Position numbers and translations under genes: made by a program. A DNA stretch of 34,957 nt, from the IMG/VR virus record IMGVR_UViG_3300029085_000005, positions 1 through 34,957 of that record. One strand, given 5' to 3'. The notes under the pieces were generated by a model. The model was not told where the DNA came from and did no database searches. It saw nothing but the letters and a program-made list of their open reading frames with translations. Position 1 is the first letter of the stretch. Each line of letters opens with the position of its first letter. Positions 4,005-18,908 of the stretch are shown piece by piece. This DNA is from a virus (taxonomy: Duplodnaviria; Heunggongvirae; Uroviricota; Caudoviricetes).

Positions 4005-4189
4005 TGACGCTCTCCGAAAATACCAAGTTCAAGAAGAGCAATTCGGGAAAGTATGGAATTATCATTGAGCAGATAAGGCTCATATTTCCTCATATTAATG
4101 GCATCTTCAGTAAACTCCCGGTTACTGAGCAGAACACCAATATCAAAACAACCTTCAGACGTATTAACGTTTGGTAATAACGTTTCCAT
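4001..4189 (-). CDS. hypothetical small protein (early-left operon)
   Basis: 62-aa ORF translationally coupled to 3816..4004; position equivalent to the racC/ydaE/kilR slot of Rac, but no sequence match recognised. Confidence 0.35.
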   Translation of the reverse strand: METLLPNVNTSEGCFDIGVLLSNREFTEDAINMRKYEPYLLNDNSILSRIALLELGIFGERQ

Positions 4190-4765
4190 TATCGCGTCCT
4201 CAACAATGAATTTTGTGATGCAGTGCCTGGTGCCTCCAGGTGACGTTAACCAGTTAACAATTAACGCCGGGTTAGTTGATGCTCGTTACGCCAGTAAAAG
4301 ACCGCCTTACTGCTTTAACTGTTCCGCGTGCGCATAGCCGCATTCACCGCATCACAAAATTCACTTTAAAAAGGGCGGCAGAGCAGTCACGGAGTAAAAC
4401 TGATACCGCCAAACGTCACCAGAAAATTGATAACAGAGGGCGTTGCAGCGGGGTTGTCACTTAAGCGTATGGTCAACCTGACAACCCGGTGTCCTCAACG
4501 GGGAAGGAATAACCCCGTCATACTTACCGCCGCGCCATTTCGCGGAGTGTCACAACCGGAAGCGCACGGTCGACGAAAATTTAACGACAGGCTATCTATG
4601 AACCAGCTACCTCGCCGTGCGCTTTCGCGTTATGGTCTGACTTTTCATGGAAATATCCTTTCAGTAAACTGTCAGTGCCGGATTCTTATCCGTGTCCGGC
4701 GCACGCACTCTACCTCACCCGTGGAGAACTCCTTAATTACCAACCTTAGCTTCGTTGGTTATCTA

Positions 4766-10738: not shown

Positions 10739-10918
10739 TTTTATGGATCACCTTTCTGATTGATTTCATATTGGCGAGGTGACGTGAGTTAAGTAGAATG
10801 GCTGCGGGTGCTTGAGGCTATCTGTCTCAGGCATGAACACTGAAAGGCAGATAGAGAAAAGCCCCAGTTAACATTTCGCGTCCTGCAAGACGCTTAACAT
10901 TAATCTGAGGCCCAATCT

Positions 10919-11131
10919 ATGTCTCACAAATGTAGGTTAGCCTCTTACGTGCCGAAAGGCAAGGGGAAGCAGGCTATGAAGCAGCAAAAGGCGATGTTAA
11001 TCGCCCTGATCGTCATCTGTTTAACCGTCATAGTGACGGCACTGGTAACGAGGAAAGACCTCTGCGAGGTACGACTCCGAACCGGCCAGACGGAGGTCGC
11101 TGTCTTCACAGCTTACGAACCTGAGGAGTAA
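10919..11131 (+). CDS. mok-like overlapping reading frame of a hok/sok-type locus
   Basis: 70-aa ORF starting 57 nt upstream of, and in frame with, the Hok-like ORF, as mok does for hok. Confidence 0.4.
   Translation: MSHKCRLASYVPKGKGKQAMKQQKAMLIALIVICLTVIVTALVTRKDLCEVRLRTGQTEVAVFTAYEPEE
10976..11131 (+). CDS. hok: Hok/Gef-family type I toxin (51 aa)
   Basis: MKQQKAMLIALIVICLTVIVTALVTRKDLCEVRLRTGQTEVAVFTAYEPEE: N-terminal TM segment, the conserved RK.LCE.R motif and VAAF/VAVF..YE tail of Hok proteins. Confidence 0.75.
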   Translation: MKQQKAMLIALIVICLTVIVTALVTRKDLCEVRLRTGQTEVAVFTAYEPEE

Positions 11132-13008: not shown

Positions 13009-13830
13009 ATGAAACTGGAAGATTTACCGAAATACTACTCCCCAAAATCCCCTGGCCTGACCGATGCATCGGCCTCAACGTCAAAAGATGCGCTGAGTAT
13101 CACTGATGTGATGGCCGCGCAGGGCATGACACAGAATCGGGCTGAGATGGGTTTTTCTGCGTTCCTGGGGAAAATGGGCATCAGTATGAATGACAGGGCG
13201 CGGGCAACAGAATTACTGGCAGATTATGCACTCAGTCGGTGCGATCGTGTGGCGGCGTTGAGAAAACTTCCGGCAGAAATAAAACCGGTAGTGATGCGCA
13301 TTATGGCTTCGTACGCTTTTGAGGATTATGCCCGCAGCGCAGCGAGTAAAAAGCAGTGCCCTTGTTGCTATGGGGAAAAATTTATTGAAAGCGTAGTTTT
13401 TACAAACAAGGTCCAGTATCCGGATGGTAAGCCGCCGGTATGGGCAAAGTGTACGAAAGGTGTGTATCCGTCTTACTGGGAAGAATGGAAAAAAGTCAGG
13501 GAGGTGGTAAAAGTTGCCTGTCCGGAGTGTGGCGGAAAGGGTGAGGTTTCCACCGCCTGTAAGGATTGCCGTGGGCGTGGTGTCGCCATTCATCGTGAAG
13601 AGTCGGTAAAACGTGGTATGCCTGTTATCAGAGACTGCCAGCGTTGTGGTGGTCGTGGCTGTGAAAGACTACCATCAACGGAGGCATTTAATGCCATACG
13701 CAAAGTGACGAGTGCTATCACGCTTGATACGTGGAAAAAATCAGTGAAACGCTTTTACGATACGTTGGTGGTTCGGTTTGACATTGAAGAGGCATGGGCG
13801 GAGCGGCAGTTAAAGAGGGTAACGCGATAG
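13009..13830 (+). CDS. Q: late-gene antiterminator Q (lambda Q family, zinc-binding)
   Basis: N-terminus MKLEDLPKYYSPKSP...DVMAAQGM parallels lambda Q MRLESVAKFHSPKSP...DVMAAMGM; multiple CxxC pairs; immediately followed by a PR'/qut-like sequence. Confidence 0.8.
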   Translation: MKLEDLPKYYSPKSPGLTDASASTSKDALSITDVMAAQGMTQNRAEMGFSAFLGKMGISMNDRARATELLADYALSRCDRVAALRKLPAEIKPVVMRIMASYAFEDYARSAASKKQCPCCYGEKFIESVVFTNKVQYPDGKPPVWAKCTKGVYPSYWEEWKKVREVVKVACPECGGKGEVSTACKDCRGRGVAIHREESVKRGMPVIRDCQRCGGRGCERLPSTEAFNAIRKVTSAITLDTWKKSVKRFYDTLVVRFDIEEAWAERQLKRVTR

Positions 13831-13834
13831 TGTT

Positions 13835-13885
13835 GTTGATTTTTCCCGAATCTGTGGTAAATTTGCTCTAACGATGGGCGTTTTA
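13835..13885 (+). promoter_or_regulatory. late promoter PR' with qut/pause element
   Basis: TTGATT (-35), 17-nt spacer, TAAATT (-10), followed by TTGCTCTAACGATGGGCG, which closely resembles the lambda PR' pause/qut region as I recall it. Coordinates approximate. Confidence 0.6.
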
Positions 13886-13911
13886 TGCCTGACGTTAGAA
13901 GATTTTTTACA

Positions 13912-13935
13912 CCCCGCCGCCTGGCGGGTTTTTTA
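13912..13935 (+). terminator. intrinsic terminator (tR'-like)
   Basis: ccccgccgcctggcgggtttttta: GC stem cccgcc/ggcggg with a 4-nt loop and a T-tract, about 45 nt downstream of the PR' -10. Confidence 0.65.
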
Positions 13936-14404: not shown

Positions 14405-15456
14405 ATGCTTAATACTGTAAAAATATCCAGTTGTGAGTTAATCAACGCCGACTGCCTGGAATTTATCCGGTCGTTACCCGAAAATTCTGTTGACCTGATA
14501 GTCACGGACCCGCCGTACTTTAAAGTGAAGCCTGAGGGCTGGGATAACCAGTGGAAGGGCGACGATGATTACCTGAAGTGGCTGGACCAGTGTCTGGCGC
14601 AGTTCTGGCGGGTGCTGAAACCTGCCGGAAGTCTTTACCTGTTCTGTGGTCATCGCCTGGCATATCTGATATCGAAATCATGATGCGTGAACGCTTCAGT
14701 GTGCTGAACCATATTATCTGGGCGAAGCCGTCCGGACGCTGGAACGGATGCAACAAGGAAAGCCTGCGGGCGTATTTCCCCGCCACAGAGCGCATTCTGT
14801 TCGCGGAACATTATCAGGGGCCGTATCGTCCGAAAGATGCCGGGTATGCGGTGAAGGGCAGTGCACTGAAACAGCATGTGATGGCCCCGCTGATTTCTTA
14901 CTTTCGTGATGCGCGCGCGGCCCTGGGGATAACGGCAAAACAGATTGCAGATGCCACAGGAAAGAAAAACATGGTGTCGCACTGGTTCAGTGCCAGTCAG
15001 TGGCAGCTACCGAACGAAAGCGATTATCTGAAATTACAGTCGCTGTTTGCCCGGGTGGCAGAAGAGAAACATCAGCGCGGTGAACTGGAAAAGCCCCACC
15101 ACCAGCTGGTGGATACGTATACGTCACTGAACCGGCAGTATGTGGAGCTGCAGAGTGAATATAAGCATCTGCGGCGGTATTTTGGTGTGACGGCGCAGGT
15201 GCCGTACACGGATGTGTGGACACATAAACCGGTGCAGTTCTATCCCGGGAAACATCCGTGCGAAAAACCGGCAGAAATGCTGCAGCAGATAATCAGCGCA
15301 AGTAGCCGTCCTGGTGATCTGGTTGCGGATTTTTTCATGGGGTCGGGTTCAACGGTAAAAGCGGCGATGGCACTGGGGCGTCGTGCGATTGGTGTTGAGC
15401 TGGAGACCGGACGTTTTGAGCAGACAGTCAGGGAAGTTCAGGATTTAATCGTTTGA
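14405..15456 (+). pseudogene. beta-class DNA amino-methyltransferase (N6-adenine or N4-cytosine), interrupted by a +1 frameshift
   Basis: ORF 14405..14683 carries motif IV DLIVTDPPYF and LKPAGSLYLFCGH; ORF 14578..15456, in the +1 frame and overlapping by about 100 nt, carries the rest including motif I DFFMGSGST near the C-terminus. Together they make one methyltransferase of about 350 aa. Confidence 0.65.
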
Positions 15457-15505: not shown

Positions 15506-15581
15506 GGCCCTTTAGCTCAGTGGTGAGAGCGAGCGACTCATAATCGCCAGGTCGCTGGTTCAAATCCAGCAAGGGCCACCA
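15506..15581 (+). tRNA. tRNA-Ile2 (anticodon CAU, ileX/ileZ-like)
   Basis: ggccctttagctcagtggtgagagcgagcgactcataatcgcc...ggttcaaatccagcaagggccacca: perfect 7-bp acceptor stem, CAU anticodon in a 7-nt loop, T-loop TTCAAAT, CCA end. Closely resembles E. coli tRNA-Ile2 from memory; elongator Met is not formally excluded. Confidence 0.7.
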
Positions 15582-15588
15582 TCACATA

Positions 15589-15665
15589 CCGCCATTAGCT
15601 CATCAGGAAAGAGCGCCAGCCTTCGAAGCTGGTTGCGCGGAGTTCGGGTCCCCGAAGGCGGTCCA
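15589..15665 (+). tRNA. tRNA-like element, Arg(UCG)-type anticodon arm, degenerate acceptor and T arms
   Basis: Perfect anticodon stem ccagc/gctgg with loop cttcgaa (anticodon UCG), D-arm gctc...gagc and terminal CCA, but one A-A mismatch in the acceptor stem, one A-C mismatch in the T stem and a non-canonical T-loop ttcgggt. Coordinates approximate. Confidence 0.4.
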
Positions 15666-15678
15666 TTATCTGTATCCT

Positions 15679-15755
15679 GCGTTGTTAGCTCAGCCGGACA
15701 GAGCAATTGCCTTCTAAGCAATCGGTCACTGGTTCGAATCCAGTACAACGCGCCA
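15679..15755 (+). tRNA. tRNA-Arg (anticodon UCU, argU-like)
   Basis: gcgttgttagctcagccggacagagcaattgccttctaagcaatcggtcactggttcgaatccagtacaacgcgcca: perfect acceptor stem, loop cUUCUAa, canonical T-loop GTTCGAATC, CCA end. Confidence 0.75.
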
Positions 15756-15801
15756 CACTTATTTTCCCTGGCTCGCTTTTGTGGGCCTTTTTTTTAAATG
15801 T

Positions 15802-16020
15802 CTCACAATTTAGGCGGTTGACTGTTGTCTGGTTTGCGGGGAGTTTGTTAAAAGAAACTGGCATGGTGAATCCCCCTGTGCGGAGGGGCAATCAGCGAGT
15901 AGGTATATGGGATAATCGCGGATTCAGGTGCTGGTACTGAATTCACCGGGAGGCACCCGGCACCATGCAATGGCACATAGCGCCACTCTCCAGCCCCTCT
16001 CCGGAGGGGCTTTTCTGTGC
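15802..16020 (+). repeat. structured non-coding module, copy A (promoter-like hexamers, two GC hairpins, terminal intrinsic terminator)
   Basis: Begins ctcacaatt; contains gttgactgttg, gcatggtgaatccccctgtgcggaggggc (hairpin), ctgaattcaccgggaggcacccggcaccatg (hairpin), and ends gcccctctccggaggggcttttctg. No credible ORF. Coordinates approximate. Confidence 0.5.
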
Positions 16021-16204
16021 CGGATACATCACAGTTTCTGGAACCTTAGGTACTACAGTATCAGTCAGGGTGCTATATTTTCAGATGTGATGAAAGCCTG
16101 TCAGCAGGCAGGGCGTATCGGAAATGACCCAGTAGAGAAAACGTTGACTCAGATACCGGTGCTGAGTTACCGGGAAACCGGCATCACATGACCGCTATCC
16201 TTCC

Positions 16205-16231
16205 AGGCCCATCCGCTCCGGTGGGCCTTTT
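16205..16231 (+). terminator. intrinsic terminator between the two modules
   Basis: ggcccatccgctccggtgggccttttt: 6-bp GC stem with T-tract. Confidence 0.5.
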
Positions 16232-16269
16232 TACTGCAGAAAACAGGTTCCCCGTTAAATGCTATGTTG

Positions 16270-16508
16270 CTCACAATTCAGTAAGTTGACAGTTGCCTGT
16301 CAGACTGGGCATTTGTTAAAAAAATTTCGCATGGTGAATCCCCCTGAGCGGAGGGGCGACTGGTGACGGTATAATCTCTGATTATCAAAACGAGAATGAC
16401 GCGGGTTTAGTGGCACCGGGCTGAACTCACCGGGAGGCACCCGGCACCATGTGCATGATGATACAGATACGCGGCTTTAGCCCCTCTCCGGAGGGGTTTT
16501 CTTGTGGG
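16270..16508 (+). repeat. structured non-coding module, copy B (paralogue of copy A)
   Basis: Begins ctcacaatt; TTGACA inside the palindrome tgacagttgcctgtca; gcatggtgaatccccctgagcggaggggc; consensus TATAAT (ggtgacggtataatc); ctgaactcaccgggaggcacccggcaccatg; ends gcccctctccggaggggttttcttg. Blocks collinear with copy A, variable sequence between them. Confidence 0.5.
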
Positions 16509-16731
16509 CAAAAAAAGCCCGCGCTGGGAGACGCGGGCGGCAAGGAATAAACAATAAAACGTGAAGTAATATTTCAGCTGGCGAATAATACCCCATAGTA
16601 ATCACTCTGCGCAACTGCGCGGTCTTTTTCGAATTGCGGGCTGTCGTCTCTCTTCTGCCATTGTCCTGTAACTTCCGGACTTCAGCCCGCTCCTTATTTT
16701 ACTCACAATATTATCCCGGCCGGGAGGATTC

Positions 16732-16959
16732 ATGGCATTTAAACACTATGACGTGGTCAGGGCGGTATCGCCGTCAGACCTTGCGAAACGACTGACACAA
16801 AAACTGAAGGAGGGCTGGCAGCCGTTTGGTAGTCCGGTGGCCATAACCCCTTATACCCTGATGCAGGCGATTGCAGCAGAAGGTGATGTGGTGGTCAGTG
16901 GTGCAACTGAGCCGGATTGGTACTACGTCATCGTACTGGCCGGGCATTCCAGGCCATAA
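16732..16959 (+). CDS. small hypothetical protein upstream of the holin (possibly DUF1737-like)
   Basis: 75-aa ORF preceded by GGGAGGA; the family call is a weak recollection only. Confidence 0.4.
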   Translation: MAFKHYDVVRAVSPSDLAKRLTQKLKEGWQPFGSPVAITPYTLMQAIAAEGDVVVSGATEPDWYYVIVLAGHSRP

Positions 16960-17227
16960 AAGACGGTCTGGCAGTGGGACTAAATGCACTGACGCTGACG
17001 GATATTACCAAAAATGCAACGTATGGCGTTGAGATAGAAAGTCTGGTGCTGGAGATAAATGCACCGGCATCATCATAAAAAGTGAGCCAGTCAAATGGAA
17101 GGTATCGTTAAACTCACCGGTAGTGTCAGTGGGTCGTCTGAGACGCCTGCATGAGTTATCAGAGCCATCAGTACTTAACTGGTGGCTTTTTTATTGTTGT
17201 CAGCTTCCGGATAACGGGAGACGGGGT

Positions 17228-17443
17228 ATGTACCAGATGGAAAAAATCACAACAGGTGTGTCATACACCACGTCAGCGGTGGGAACGGGCTACTGGTTCC
17301 TGCAGTTGCTGGACAGGGTTTCCCCGTCTCAGTGGGCGGCAATAGGCGTGCTGGGGAGTCTGCTGTTTGGGCTGCTGACATATCTGACTAACCTGTATTT
17401 CAAAATCAAAGAGGACCGGCGTAAGGCGGCGCGGGGAGAGTAA
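17228..17443 (+). CDS. S: class II holin, S21-like pinholin with dual-start motif
   Basis: Internal Met of ORF 17123..17443 gives [71 protein letters not shown] (71 aa, two TM segments, Met1/Met4 dual start, charged C-terminus), closely resembling phage 21 S21 from memory. Confidence 0.8.
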
Positions 17444-17447
17444 AGTG

Positions 17448-18338
17448 ATGAATAAAAAATATGAACTGGTTGTTAAGGGGATAAATAATTACGGGGATAA
17501 GGTTACTGTTACTGTGAAGCCGGAAGGTGACGGGCAAGCGTCGCTGTTGTTGCCAGATGTGGCGATTAGTCTTGACCGTACTGAAGGTGCCACGCTGGAG
17601 TTTTACGAAGCTGAGGCGAAAAAGCAGGCGAAGCAGTTTTTCATGGATGTTGCTGCCGGGTTATGTGAAGGGGATGGTCCGTTGCCGGAAAAGCGCCCCG
17701 TAATTTTAGAGGCGCAGGATGTGTTGATAACCTACAAAGGAAAGCTACCGGGAAGAATTACTTGTTCTCTGAAGATGCCGCCGTCAACACTGCGGTCAGA
17801 AAAAGATGATGTTGAATCACGTATTGAAAAACTGGAGAGCTACGTCGTTGAGCTGAATAAGAAATGGTCGATATTGGTGCCTTCTGGCGATGAAAAGCAG
17901 TTTGCTGCGTTTGACGATTATTGTCGGAAAGTGATGAGCAGAAATCTCGCAGAGTGTTTCAGTATTCATAATGATAATTTCAGTGACCCGGAATGGGAGT
18001 GTAACCGGCCATCCTTTGTTGTATCCGGTGATGCTGGGAAAATAACCATCTCAGAAAATGGGAAAGTAACACCTCCATCGCACCAGCACAGTGAGGAGCT
18101 CATTGAATTTGCCATTGATTACCTGAAGAACAATAAAAAGCAGGGGCTGATGAAGCGCGTTGGCCGTTGCATGGGATATCTGCAGGTAGCTGCTGAGATT
18201 GAAGCGCTGGCCAGTGGTGCTGATAAGGATGCAATTGTGCGGGAGGCTTTTCTTCGTGATTTTAATACTCCACCCTTTAAAAAAGTGCCGGCTTACTGGC
18301 TTCATCCGGGGCTGACTTATCTTAAAGTGCGTATTTAG
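17448..18338 (+). CDS. hypothetical 296-aa soluble protein inserted between holin and endolysin (unknown function)
   Basis: ORF 17445..18338 (GTG at 17445, ATG at 17448) starts a few nt after the holin stop and ends about 35 nt before the endolysin start. No TM segment, signal peptide or motif recognised; visibly AT-richer than the flanking genes. Confidence 0.55.
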   Translation: MNKKYELVVKGINNYGDKVTVTVKPEGDGQASLLLPDVAISLDRTEGATLEFYEAEAKKQAKQFFMDVAAGLCEGDGPLPEKRPVILEAQDVLITYKGKLPGRITCSLKMPPSTLRSEKDDVESRIEKLESYVVELNKKWSILVPSGDEKQFAAFDDYCRKVMSRNLAECFSIHNDNFSDPEWECNRPSFVVSGDAGKITISENGKVTPPSHQHSEELIEFAIDYLKNNKKQGLMKRVGRCMGYLQVAAEIEALASGADKDAIVREAFLRDFNTPPFKKVPAYWLHPGLTYLKVRI

Positions 18339-18374: not shown

Positions 18375-18908
18375 ATGAACACCAAAATCAAATACGGCCT
18401 GTCGGCTGCCGTTCTGGCGCTGATTGCCGCTGGTGCGCCTGCGCCTGACATTCTCGACCAGTTTCTGGATGAAAAGGAAGGCAACCACACCACAGCATAC
18501 CGTGATGGTGCGGGTATCTGGACCATCTGCCGAGGTGCCATCATGGTGGATGGTAAGCCTGTGATTCCTGGCATGAAGCTGTCGAAGGAAAAATGCGACT
18601 GGGTTAACACTATCGAACGGGATAAGGCGCTGGCGTGGGTGGAGAAAAACATCAGAGTGCCACTGACCGAACCCCAGAAAGCGGGGATCGCGTCATTCTG
18701 TCCGTACAACATTGGTCCCGGTAAGTGTTTCCCGTCGACGTTTTACAGACGAATTAATGCTGGTGATCGAAAAGGTGCCTGCGAAGCGATTCGCTGGTGG
18801 ATTAAGGACGGTGGCAGAGACTGCCGTATTCGTTCAAACAACTGTTACGGTCAAGTATCCCGTCGTGACCAGGAGAGCGCGCTGGCGTGCTGGGGTATCG
18901 ACAGATAA
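18375..18908 (+). CDS. R: SAR endolysin (R21-like, T4-lysozyme fold, GH24)
   Basis: N-terminal signal-anchor-release segment (LSAAVLALIAAGA) and catalytic E-8aa-D-5aa-T motif in LDEKEGNHTTAYRDGAGIWTICRG. Confidence 0.85.
   Translation: MNTKIKYGLSAAVLALIAAGAPAPDILDQFLDEKEGNHTTAYRDGAGIWTICRGAIMVDGKPVIPGMKLSKEKCDWVNTIERDKALAWVEKNIRVPLTEPQKAGIASFCPYNIGPGKCFPSTFYRRINAGDRKGACEAIRWWIKDGGRDCRIRSNNCYGQVSRRDQESALACWGIDR

What the first reader, a model, noticed from the sequence alone, without database searches (positions are those of the whole stretch)
15802..16508. Two tandem paralogous copies of a structured non-coding module between the tRNA cluster and the lysis genes
Two collinear units about 470 bp apart share blocks in the same order: ctcacaatt, gTTGAC(t/a)gttg, a GC hairpin gcatggtgaatccccctg(t/a)gcggaggggc, a second hairpin caccgggaggcacccggcaccatg, and a terminal terminator gcccctctccggagggg plus T-run. 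Copy B also has a consensus TATAAT and a perfect palindrome tgacagttgcctgtca. Only trivial micro-ORFs (MVNPP.RRG...) occur and they lack an RBS. The pattern of conserved stems with variable spacers points to RNA-level function: prophage small RNAs, or duplicated late-promoter/pause/terminator modules imported from another lambdoid lineage. They sit in the late transcript path between Q/PR' and the holin.
Basis: seen in the sequence. Interest (0 to 1): 0.6.

Follow-up and report, generated by a model that had tools for sequence, protein, structure and literature searches.

The report
Tandem prophage STnc100 small-RNA genes
The two repeated modules are copies of a known prophage small-RNA family (Rfam STnc100, related to EcOnc27 and PasD); a third, diverged copy lies between them, so the finding is real but largely already described.

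Summary
Positions 15832-16022 and 16300-16509 are full-length matches to Rfam RF02076 (STnc100), at 136 and 161 bits against a threshold of 47. This family is Hfq-associated. It lies in the 'moron' site between the late promoter PR' and the lysis genes of lambdoid prophages. Known relatives are EcOnc27/sRNA103 in EHEC and PasD1/PasD2 in EPEC.

It keeps every helix through compensatory changes.

Each unit has four parts:
- its own sigma-70 promoter with an extended -10;
- a 105-125 nt 5' domain that starts at the predicted +1;
- a short variable tail;
- an intrinsic terminator.

A convergent minus-strand sRNA gene follows copy B, giving the published 'dyad' layout.

The true late promoter, with a lambda-like pause box and tR', lies 2 kb upstream.

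Three details appear new. The 5' domain contains a covarying pseudoknot. Its 3' tails are swapped between cores. The same domain sits between dicF and dicB, here and in K-12.

The function of the family is still unknown. Interest is low to moderate.

The parts
15802..15854 (+). Unit A control region. Conserved upstream boxes CTCACAATT and GTTGAC; predicted promoter with -35 TTGTCT at 15825-15830, an 18-bp spacer, extended -10 TG at 15846-15847, and -10 TAAAAG at 15849-15854.
   Evidence: Sequence. These blocks are conserved upstream of 58 distinct homologous units. The geometry puts +1 on the first base of helix P1. That is where RNA-seq and Northern data place the 5' ends of PasD1 and PasD2 (Table S6 of PMC8550237).
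15861..15968 (+). Unit A 5' core domain. P1 closing helix GCAUGGUG/CACCAUGC, P2 hairpin, variable P3, P4 hairpin whose loop pairs with the linker after P2 (pseudoknot AUCAGCG/UGCUGGU), and P5 hairpin CCGGG-AGGCA-CCCGG.
   Evidence: Rfam STnc100, 136 bits. Core model R1, 123 bits. The single-sequence MFE fold gives the same helices. Covariation.
15969..16016 (+). Unit A variable tail (AAUGGCACAUAGCGCCACUCUCCA) and intrinsic terminator (stem 15992-16011, then UUUU).
   Evidence: Terminator scan, fold. The tail differs from those of the other two units.
16071..16079 (+). Predicted promoter of the middle unit: extended -10 TGcTATATT.
   Evidence: Sequence. Conserved upstream of 9 homologous middle-type units.
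16085..16189 (+). Middle unit 5' core domain. It is diverged: P1 is AUGUGAUG/CAUCACAU, P2 is GCCUG/CAGGC, P4 is UGACUCAG/CUGAGUUA, P5 is CCGG-GAAA-CCGG, and the pseudoknot is UAUCGG/CCGGUG.
   Evidence: Rfam 30.1 bits, below threshold, E 5e-5. R1 40.3 bits, E 1e-7. MFE fold z = -3.5 with the same architecture.
16190..16233 (+). Middle unit tail (GACCGCUAUCCUUCCA) and intrinsic terminator (stem 16205-16228, then UUUUU).
16270..16322 (+). Unit B control region. Boxes CTCACAATT and GTTGACA, and the palindrome at 16287-16302. Predicted -35 TTGCCT at 16293-16298, TG at 16314-16315, and -10 TAAAAA at 16317-16322.
16329..16452 (+). Unit B 5' core domain.
   Evidence: Rfam 161 bits. R1 109 bits. Fold. 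Pseudoknot.
16453..16505 (+). Unit B variable tail (GCAUGAUGAUACAGAUACGCGGCUUUA) and intrinsic terminator (stem 16479-16498, then UUUUCUU).
16510..16600 (-). Convergent partner sRNA gene. Its terminator runs 16538-16517 plus U7. Possible -10 TATTAT at 16590-16585. This completes the 'dyad' layout.
   Evidence: Best-ranked terminator in the scan. About 93% identical, by my count from alignment A6, to the EPEC RIL-seq sRNA E2348C_1409.E2348C_1408.IGR, a homologue of EcOnc08/21/42. There is no AsxR or AgvB match in Rfam.
4218..4352 (-). Fourth, distant copy of the same core domain. It has no promoter or terminator of its own and lies between DicF (4424-4373) and the dicB start codon (4189).
   Evidence: R1 43.9 bits, E 1.6e-8. 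Fold. Pseudoknot CAGUUAA/UUAACUG read. The same element is in K-12 Qin and in more than 100 viral contigs.

Best explanation
The region is a head-to-tail array of three paralogous small-RNA genes of the STnc100/EcOnc27/PasD family. A convergent partner sRNA gene closes the array. It sits in the moron site of a lambdoid prophage, after Q, PR'-tR', a broken methylase gene and the three tRNA genes, and before the lysis genes.

Each unit is a self-contained transcription unit. It has a sigma-70 promoter with an extended -10. This places +1 on the first base of a 105-125 nt pseudoknotted 5' domain. A 16-29 nt unit-specific segment follows, then an intrinsic terminator with a U-tail.

In a lysogen the units should give discrete RNAs of about 150-175 nt that associate with Hfq. 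They should act in trans by base pairing through the variable 3' segment. That is where the mapped PasD seed lies. The three units would therefore share one scaffold but differ in targets. The conserved 5' domain most likely acts as a scaffold that protects the 5' end. During lytic growth, Q-modified polymerase from PR' reads through all three terminators.

Shown here: family membership, conserved structure, terminators, promoter-like geometry and genomic context. Shown by others for homologues: transcription, size, Hfq association and seed position. Inferred: transcription and trans-action of these particular copies, and the role of the 5' domain.
For: Family membership: A scores 136 bits and B 161 bits against a 47-bit threshold.

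Structure:
- P1, P2, P4 and P5 are 98.1% paired over 55 distinct sequences. Both-sided changes occur in 19 of 26 pairs. No shuffle out of 500 reaches this, and slid controls give 32-50% paired.
- RNAalifold on an unfitted MAFFT alignment recovers the same helices.
- Single-sequence folds of A, middle, B and the dicB-leader copy give the same architecture.
- Pseudoknot: ten different linker/loop sequence classes are each complementary. Cognate duplexes average -9.2 kcal/mol and non-cognate ones -3.5. In 20000 permutations, none reached the observed total.

Transcription-unit anatomy:
- Terminators were found 17 times against 3.6 expected in shuffles.
- The TGn-TAAAA(G/A) box is conserved at -15 to -7 and TTGNCT at -36 to -31.
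- PasD1 and PasD2 5' ends, from RNA coverage and Northern blots, fall exactly on the first base of P1 (with the model hit coordinates).

Literature on homologues:
- All 11 STnc100 copies in EDL933 had transcriptome reads, and one was confirmed by Northern blot (PMC5331693).
- EcOnc27 binds Hfq and forms convergent dyads downstream of PR' in eight Sakai prophages (PMC4104026; PMC7873438).
- The PasD seed UGUGAG lies just upstream of the terminator.

Tails are shuffled among cores. The context genes are confirmed by Pfam.
Against: - There are no expression data for these exact copies.
- No target or phenotype is established for any STnc100 member. For EcOnc27/sRNA103 only overexpression effects are reported.
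- The predicted -10 hexamers TAAAAG and TAAAAA lack the usual T at -7. The strict promoter scan did not call them.
- The middle unit is below Rfam's threshold.
- The same core domain occurs as an internal mRNA leader, between dicF and dicB, without a promoter or terminator. Its selected function may therefore not be 'sRNA' as such.
- PasD levels did not fall in the hfq deletion strain by RNA-seq (log2 change +0.55 and -0.18). Dependence on Hfq is therefore unclear.
- No complementarity longer than 11 nt links the tails to anything else in the window.
- Most covariation in P1, P2 and P5 comes from a few divergent units aligned by the model. The canonical units were fetched with a pattern that fixes the 5' strand of P1.
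Confidence: 0.75

Rival explanations
1. The selected function lies in the pseudoknotted 5' domain itself, acting in cis or as a protein- or ligand-binding module. Possible roles are a 5'-end protective cap, an RNase III/E processing signal, or a binding site for a phage or host factor. On this view the sRNA units are one packaging of the module and the dicB-operon leader is another. Base pairing by the tails would be secondary.
For: - The same domain, with its own pseudoknot class, lies between DicF and dicB or other ORFs. This holds in this window, in K-12 and in more than 100 viral contigs, with no promoter or terminator of its own.
- The core is far more conserved than the tails, and tails are exchanged between cores.
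- J1/2 (GAAU) and the P5 loop (AGGCA) are nearly invariant.
- PasD abundance did not fall in the hfq deletion strain.
- In tail type 3 no strong terminator follows, and lipoprotein genes come next.
Against: - PasD gives many Hfq-dependent RIL-seq chimeras with a shared target motif complementary to its tail.
- EcOnc27 cross-links to Hfq.
- Every unit in the array has its own terminator with a U-tail, the typical Hfq-binding module.
- No binding partner or ligand is known.
Confidence: 0.2
2. The units are duplicated late-gene control modules, made of a Q-dependent promoter, a pause site and a terminator, like PR'-6S-tR' of lambda or StxS of Stx phages.
For: Each unit has a promoter-like box and a terminator, and lies on the late transcript path.
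Against: - A complete lambda-type PR' lies directly after Q at 13836-13935. It has TAAATT, the AACGAT pause box and tR'.
- The units carry no -10-like pause element in their first 25 nt.
- They encode a 105-125 nt covarying structure that a pause/terminator module does not need.
- In Stx2 phages the homologous unit lies after stx2B, far from Q.
Confidence: 0.02
3. The blocks are remnants of a protein-coding gene or encode micro-peptides. RefSeq annotates antisense 'hypothetical protein' pseudogenes over them.
For: RefSeq marks a partial hypothetical protein on the minus strand over unit A in strain 55989, and a 132-aa ORF over PasD1. A sense micro-ORF MVNPP.RRG exists.
Against: - The overlapping ORFs have no Pfam match.
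- The sense ORF varies from 1 to 25 codons between units.
- Substitutions are compensatory in RNA helices rather than following codon positions.
- Ribosome coverage of the EDL933 copies is mostly low.
Confidence: 0.01
4. The repeats are conserved DNA 'linker' sequences that serve as recombination joints between mosaic phage modules and have no RNA function.
For: The units sit at a mosaic boundary. The identical 1271 bp is followed by different genes in 55989 and in this window. Cores and tails are reassorted.
Against: Compensatory changes that keep four helices and a pseudoknot across ten sequence classes show selection on RNA pairing. Homologues are abundant transcripts.
Confidence: 0.02

Closest known systems
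Rfam RF02076 STnc100 (Gammaproteobacterial sRNA; EcOnc27 / sRNA103 in EHEC O157:H7)
   Same: A and B are full-length matches above the curated threshold. They have the same helices, the same terminator type and the same position downstream of PR' and the tRNA genes or stx and upstream of the lysis genes. A convergent partner sRNA is also present.
   Different: - Here there are three units in tandem. The middle one is below the family threshold.
- Model positions 1-29 correspond to what I predict is promoter DNA, not RNA.
- The structure line printed for the Rfam model shows no pseudoknot.
PasD1/PasD2 of EPEC E2348/69 (homologue EcOnc13)
   Same: The 5' start is the same (GCAUGGUGAAUCC). P1, P2 and P4 are present, and the linker pairs with the P4 loop (AAUGAUC/GAUCAUU). 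They are prophage sRNAs between Q and the lysis genes, and their 5' end was mapped to the first base of P1.
   Different: - PasD lacks the P5 hairpin.
- PasD has a different tail, with seed UGUGAG, and a different terminator.
- It scores only 37.7 bits with the core model, and Rfam finds nothing above threshold in those loci.
- PasD copies are reported to be far apart in genomes, not tandem.
Convergent sRNA 'dyads' in the moron site of lambdoid prophages (Tree et al. 2014: EcOnc27 with AsxR, EcOnc06 with AgvB)
   Same: A sense structured sRNA is followed by a short convergent sRNA with its own terminator, between PR' and the lysis genes.
   Different: The antisense partner here is of the EcOnc08/21/42 type, not the AsxR/AgvB anti-sRNA type. 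The sense side is a triple array rather than a single gene.
Tandemly duplicated sRNA genes with shared scaffold and diverged target regions (OmrA/OmrB, PrrF1/PrrF2, Qrr1-5)
   Same: These are adjacent paralogues, each with its own promoter and terminator, sharing a conserved part and differing in a variable part.
   Different: This comparison rests on general knowledge, not on a test here. In OmrA/B the 5' seed is conserved and the middle varies. Here the 5' domain is a large conserved fold and the presumed seed lies in the variable 3' tail. The array is on a mobile prophage.
Lambda PR'-6S RNA-tR' and StxS
   Same: A short terminated transcript in the late region of a lambdoid phage that Q-modified polymerase reads through.
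   Different: That module is present separately at 13836-13935. The units of the finding have no pause box, are not next to Q, and encode a much larger structured RNA.

Membership tests
Rfam RF02076 STnc100 | Covariance-model score at or above the curated gathering score (47 bits) | tested here: met
   A scores 136.3 bits and B 161 bits. The middle unit scores 30.1 bits and the dicB-leader copy in K-12 scores 34.4 bits. By this criterion neither of those two is a member.
Rfam RF02076 STnc100 | Conserved secondary structure kept by compensatory changes | tested here: met
   98.1% of cells are paired, 19 of 26 pairs change on both sides, and 0 of 500 shuffles reach this. RNAalifold on an independent alignment gives the same helices.
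Rfam RF02076 STnc100 | Made as a discrete small RNA that associates with Hfq | not testable with these tools
   Shown only for homologues: Northern blot of STnc100_4, Hfq-CRAC of EcOnc27, and RIL-seq and Northern blot of PasD.
Moron-site convergent sRNA dyad (Tree et al. 2014) | Location between the Q-dependent late promoter and the lysis cassette of a lambdoid prophage | tested here: met
   Q (PF03589) at 13009-13830, PR'/tR' at 13836-13935, P21-type holin at 17228-17443, and a lysozyme ORF at 18375-18908.
Moron-site convergent sRNA dyad (Tree et al. 2014) | A convergent antisense-strand sRNA gene with its own terminator immediately downstream | tested here: met
   Minus-strand terminator at 16538-16517 plus U7. 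About 93% identity to an EPEC RIL-seq sRNA.
AsxR/AgvB anti-sRNA family (RF02703/RF02702), for the convergent partner | Match to the family model | tested here: not met
   No match at E up to 5 in 15750-17250. The partner is of the EcOnc08/21/42 type.
PasD (EPEC) | PasD tail with seed UGUGAG and the GGCUGCGCA..GCGCAGCC terminator | tested here: not met
   The tails and terminators of A, middle and B are different. Only the 5' domain is shared.
Lambda-type late promoter module (PR'-pause-tR') | Promoter next to Q, with a -10-like pause-inducing element in the early transcribed region, followed by a terminator | tested here: not met
   That module is at 13836-13935, with TAAATT and AACGAT. The three units lie 2 kb from Q and carry no such element.
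Protein-coding gene or gene fragment | A conserved reading frame or a match to a protein family | tested here: not met
   None of the three overlapping ORFs tested has a Pfam match. The length of the sense ORF is not conserved.

The most novel reading that the evidence does not exclude
The conserved 5' part may be an autonomous, pseudoknotted RNA module of about 105-135 nt. It has a P1 closing helix that includes the first nucleotide, P2, a variable P3, a P4 whose loop pairs with the P2-P3 linker, and P5 with a near-invariant AGGCA loop. This module would be broader than Rfam STnc100. Lambdoid phages would reuse it in two settings: as the 5' body of swappable-tail sRNAs (STnc100, EcOnc27, PasD) and as the leader that follows DicF in dicB operons, K-12 Qin included. 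If so, it has a specific function of its own, such as a nuclease-resistant 5' cap left after DicF processing, or a binding site for a protein or ligand. It would then deserve to be defined as a structured-RNA class.
Probability: 0.3. Interest if true: 0.6.

Novelty: already known. Interest (0 to 1): 0.3.

Why it matters
The finding as stated is a re-discovery. Rfam annotates these sequences. The family has been seen by Hfq-CRAC, RIL-seq and Northern blots in EHEC and EPEC, and its position in the moron site is published.

It still matters in three ways.
1. No STnc100 member has an established target, yet the family is among the most abundant sRNA annotations in enterobacterial genomes. Variation next to stx2 that overlaps a family member was recently linked to clinical outcome of O157 infection (PMC12711010).
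2. The anatomy worked out here makes function testable: the transcription start at the first base of P1, an extended -10 promoter, a covarying pseudoknot, and exchangeable 3' tails. It also suggests that the Rfam model includes promoter DNA.
3. A triple array with three different tails on one scaffold, and the same scaffold in the dicF-dicB spacer of K-12, point to a reusable RNA module. This can be studied in a non-pathogenic strain.

Tried and rejected
- **Genome-wide pattern scan.** I scanned species-representative genomes for GCATGGTGAATCCNCC.
- **Strict sigma-70 scan.** It called none of the three promoters. The promoter model rests instead on conserved geometry and on the PasD 5' ends.
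- **Sigma-54 promoter.** I checked by eye for GG-N10-GC upstream of A and B and found none. A Salmonella ChIP-exo paper mentions RpoN binding at STnc100, but the passages I retrieved gave no coordinates.
- **Rfam on the PasD loci.** Nothing scored above threshold, so PasD is related to STnc100 only through the core model.
- **Targets inside the window.** Apart from the trivial self-antisense matches, complementarity of the three tails, the P3 regions and the partner sRNA to the rest of the window reached only 10-11 nt, about what I estimate chance gives.
- **Full-length fold of B.** The MFE pairs P2 with the terminator, because both contain GGAGGGGC. I treat this as a folding artefact or a possible alternative state, not as evidence, since other family members have unrelated terminators.
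The positions do not fit.
- **PasA/PasC-like sRNA upstream of the holin.** None was found by eye. Only a remnant of the esterase 3' end carries the PasA target-like motif.
- **AsxR/AgvB identity of the convergent partner.** Rejected by Rfam.
Full report
**What is there**

The window is a lambdoid prophage. The gene order in this part is:

| Feature | Position | Source |
|---|---|---|
| Q antiterminator (PF03589) | 13009-13830 | |
| N6/N4 DNA methylase, split into two ORFs | 14405-15456 | |
| Three tRNA genes | 15506-15755 | |
| The region of the finding | 15802-16508 | |
| DUF1737 gene | 16732-16959 | |
| P21-type holin | 17228-17443 | |
| DUF1327 gene | 17445-18338 | |
| Lysozyme ORF | 18375-18908 | |

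The 1271 bp that hold the tRNA genes and the finding are 100% identical to E. coli 55989 and several other genomes. At least 80% of this stretch is present in 318 of 5426 complete E. coli genomes. In 55989 a different gene follows it, so this is a mosaic module.

**Check of the observation**

The two units align at 81% mean column identity over 253 columns. An Rfam scan of the whole window returns two full-length matches to RF02076 STnc100. They lie at 15832-16022 (136 bits) and 16300-16509 (161 bits), against a gathering score of 47.

**A third unit**

A permissive Rfam scan finds a third STnc100-like match between the two copies, at 16061-16234 (30 bits, E 5e-5).

I built a covariance model of the 5' core alone. 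It used 21 diverse homologues that were fetched from viral contigs with a conserved pattern. Run on the window without filters, this model gives four hits:

| Unit | Position | Strand | Bits |
|---|---|---|---|
| A | 15861-15968 | + | 123 |
| B | 16329-16452 | + | 109 |
| Middle | 16085-16189 | + | 40 (E 1e-7) |
| Fourth copy | 4352-4218 | - | 44 |

The middle unit keeps each helix through changes on both strands:
- P1 is AUGUGAUG/CAUCACAU instead of GCAUGGUG/CACCAUGC.
- P2 is GCCUG/CAGGC instead of CCCCU/AGGGG.
- P4 is UGACUCAG/CUGAGUUA.
- P5 is CCGG/CCGG.

Folded on its own, it gives the same architecture with z = -3.5. It has its own terminator at 16205-16228 and an extended -10 box, TGcTATATT, at 16071-16079.

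The same A-middle-B triple occurs in at least eight other viral contigs. One contig has four units within about 1 kb. Across the sampled loci, array sizes were 82 singles, 2 doubles, 9 triples and 1 quadruple.

**Structure**

The analysis used 121 model hits, of which 55 are distinct sequences.
- The four nested helices are 98.1% paired.
- 19 of 26 pairs show changes on both sides.
- No shuffle out of 500 reaches any of the measures.
- Sliding the partners drops pairing to 32-50%.

Two caveats apply. The alignment is fitted to the model. The canonical units were also retrieved with a pattern that fixes the 5' strand of P1. Within those units covariation is limited to P4. The changes in P1, P2 and P5 come from the divergent units.

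RNAalifold on an unfitted MAFFT alignment recovers P1, P2, P4 and P5 on its own.

There is also a pseudoknot. The 6-9 nt that follow P2 are complementary to the loop of P4. I found this pairing in ten different sequence classes. Examples are:
- AUCAGC/GCUGAU
- AUCAGUAC/GUACUGAU
- CUGGUG/CACCGG
- UAAUGAC/GUCAUUG
- ACUGAUUAG/UUAAUCAGU
- CUGGCU/AGCCAG
- UAUCGG/CCGGUG
- AAUGAUC/GAUCAUU in PasD
- CAGUUAA/UUAACUG in the dicB leader

Cognate linker-loop duplexes average -9.2 kcal/mol and non-cognate ones -3.5. Reassigning loops at random never reached the observed total in 20000 permutations. A further class, AGUCGC/GCGACU, appeared in the later scan. The 2026 preprint on Pas sRNAs does not contain the word 'pseudoknot'. 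The structure line printed for the Rfam model shows none.

**Transcription-unit anatomy**

Upstream sequences of 58 distinct units share three boxes:
- CTCACAATTCAG at about -59 to -48;
- GTTGAC-GTTG-CTG at -44 to -30;
- TTTGTTAAAA at -17 to -8.

Counted from the first base of P1, this gives TG at -15/-14 and TAAAA(G/A) at -12 to -7, with TTG(T/C)CT at -36 to -31. That is an extended -10 promoter with an 18-bp spacer.

RNA coverage and Northern sizing put the 5' ends of PasD1 and PasD2 at 1060260 and 741157 of E2348/69. These are exactly the first bases of the model hits. I therefore infer that A, middle and B start at 15861, 16085 and 16329. I also infer that the first 29 positions of the Rfam model are promoter DNA. 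The expected RNAs are about 155, 149 and 175 nt.

The TATAAT of copy B lies in the stem of the variable P3 hairpin. The upstream boxes remain unexplained.

**Tails**

The segment between P1 and the terminator differs in each unit:
- A: AAUGGCACAUAGCGCCACUCUCCA
- Middle: GACCGCUAUCCUUCCA
- B: GCAUGAUGAUACAGAUACGCGGCUUUA

Across homologues, unrelated tails and terminators are joined to the same core. The PasD-type terminator is found on STnc100-type cores. The mapped PasD seed, UGUGAG, lies in this segment. This supports a picture of a constant scaffold with exchangeable target-recognition tails.

**Rejection of the late-promoter reading**

Directly after Q lie TTGATT-16 bp-TAAATT, then TGCTCT, then AACGAT, and a strong terminator at 13913-13928. 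From my own knowledge of lambda, this is the layout of PR' with its sigma-70-dependent pause box and tR'. The late promoter module is therefore present once, 2 kb upstream of the finding.

**Comparison with what is known**

- Tree et al. 2014 described Hfq-bound sRNAs at conserved positions downstream of PR' in the moron site. They form convergent pairs, for example EcOnc27 and AsxR after stx2B, in eight Sakai prophages. A 2021 review repeats this and notes that the reason for the arrangement is unclear.
- EcOnc27 overlaps the Rfam STnc100 annotation.
- EDL933 has 11 STnc100 copies. All had transcriptome reads, and one was confirmed by Northern blot.
- PasD1 and PasD2 of EPEC are abundant RIL-seq sRNAs. 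A 2026 preprint concludes that PasD and STnc100 share an ancestor. It states that PasD copies are dispersed, not tandem.
- The window also has the convergent partner. On the minus strand, 16510 to about 16600 ends in the best-ranked terminator of the scan. It is about 93% identical, by my count from alignment A6, to the EPEC sRNA candidate E2348C_1409.E2348C_1408.IGR. That candidate is a homologue of EcOnc08/21/42 and had 73 RIL-seq interactions. By Rfam it is not AsxR or AgvB.

**The fourth copy**

On the minus strand the core domain fills the spacer between DicF (4424-4373) and the dicB start codon at 4189. It has a 12-bp P1 and no promoter or terminator of its own.

The same element is in the Qin prophage of K-12 MG1655, between dicF and dicB. 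It scores 43.7 bits with my model and 34 bits with Rfam, below threshold.

A scan for its P5 variant found at least 120 viral contigs. In most of the 65 distinct flanks the domain directly follows a DicF-type terminator. It precedes dicB or one of several other ORFs. P4 carries compensatory changes and the pseudoknot is constant.

The domain is therefore not tied to sRNA genes. This is the basis of the cis-acting rival explanation and of the novel reading.

**Mechanism and confidence**

- I consider it near certain that A and B are STnc100 genes and that the middle unit is a diverged paralogue.
- I consider it likely (about 0.8) that each unit is transcribed from its own promoter in the lysogen.
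- I consider it more likely than not (about 0.6) that they act in trans through their tails with Hfq.
- The role of the 5' domain is inferred only. Its first nucleotide is paired in P1. PasD levels did not drop without Hfq in RNA-seq. In the dicB operon the domain would become the 5' end of the downstream mRNA once DicF is cut off. These points fit a 5'-end protective scaffold. However, the near-invariant loop and junction bases suggest a more specific partner.

**Verdict**

The new points are incremental: the hidden third unit, tandem arrays as a recurrent layout, the pseudoknot, the promoter and start-site assignment, tail shuffling, and the link to the dicF-dicB spacer.

Noticed in passing
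window 4218-4352 (-); also L243 656-781 (K-12 MG1655 Qin prophage): The spacer between DicF and dicB is a distant copy of the STnc100-type pseudoknotted core. It has a 12-bp P1 and pseudoknot CAGUUAA/UUAACUG. It scores below Rfam's threshold, so it is not annotated. It is conserved after DicF-type terminators in more than 100 viral contigs and precedes dicB or other ORFs.
   Followed up: yes
window 16510-16600 (-): A convergent short sRNA gene with a strong terminator (16538-16517 plus U7). It is about 93% identical to the EPEC RIL-seq sRNA E2348C_1409.E2348C_1408.IGR, a homologue of EcOnc08/21/42. It has a weak, sub-threshold resemblance to OmrA-B (25 bits) and is not AsxR or AgvB.
   Followed up: partly
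window 13836-13935 (+): A lambda-like late promoter module directly after Q: TTGATT-16 bp-TAAATT, the AACGAT pause box, and a strong terminator (CCCGCCGCCTGGCGGG plus T6). It probably gives a short 6S/StxS-like transcript.
   Followed up: partly
L364 (Stx2a phage Stx2_95) 740-765: The STnc100 core starts 104 nt after stx2B. The outcome-linked SNP (+90) and T deletion (+103) reported in PMC12711010 would then fall at about -15 to -13 (the extended -10 region) and -4 to -2 of the sRNA promoter, not in the mature RNA. The numbering is uncertain by about 1 nt.
   Followed up: partly
window 15802-15828 and 16270-16296; weaker at 16043-16051: The conserved upstream boxes CTCACAATTCAG and GTTGAC, at -59 to -38 relative to the predicted start, are not explained by the promoter model. 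CUCACA is also the RIL-seq target motif of PasD, which may be coincidence. CTCACAAT recurs at 16704-16711, upstream of the DUF1737 gene.
   Followed up: no
window 15873-15889 with 15992-16011, and 16341-16357 with 16479-16498: The 3' arm of P2 and the 3' arm of the terminator share the octamer GGAGGGGC. The MFE fold of full-length unit B pairs P2 with the terminator instead of forming the domain. This could be an alternative state or a folding artefact.
   Followed up: no
window 14405-15456 (+): The N6/N4 DNA methylase is split into two overlapping ORFs (14405-14683 and 14578-15456, both PF01555). It is probably a frameshifted pseudogene.
   Followed up: no
window 16917-17078 (+): This short ORF looks like the 3' remnant of a nanS-p type esterase gene. 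It contains GATAGAAAGTCTGGTGCTGGAGATAAATGCA, which matches the PasA target site listed for E2348C_1246 in the EPEC RIL-seq data. I saw no PasA-like gene nearby.
   Followed up: partly
window 10806-10981 (+) and 4373-4424 (-): There are full-length Rfam matches to sok (hok/sok antitoxin RNA, 120 bits) and to DicF (77 bits). The prophage therefore carries at least seven sRNA-type elements.
   Followed up: no
window 15506-15581 (+): ARAGORN calls the first tRNA Met (anticodon CAT), while RefSeq annotates the identical gene as tRNA-Ile. This fits the ileZ-argN-argO cluster typical of Stx-type phages, which I recall from general knowledge.
   Followed up: no
L195 1431-2700: In some prophages the same core is followed by a tail without a strong terminator and then by two small lipoprotein-like ORFs upstream of the holin. 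There the domain may act as an mRNA leader.
   Followed up: partly
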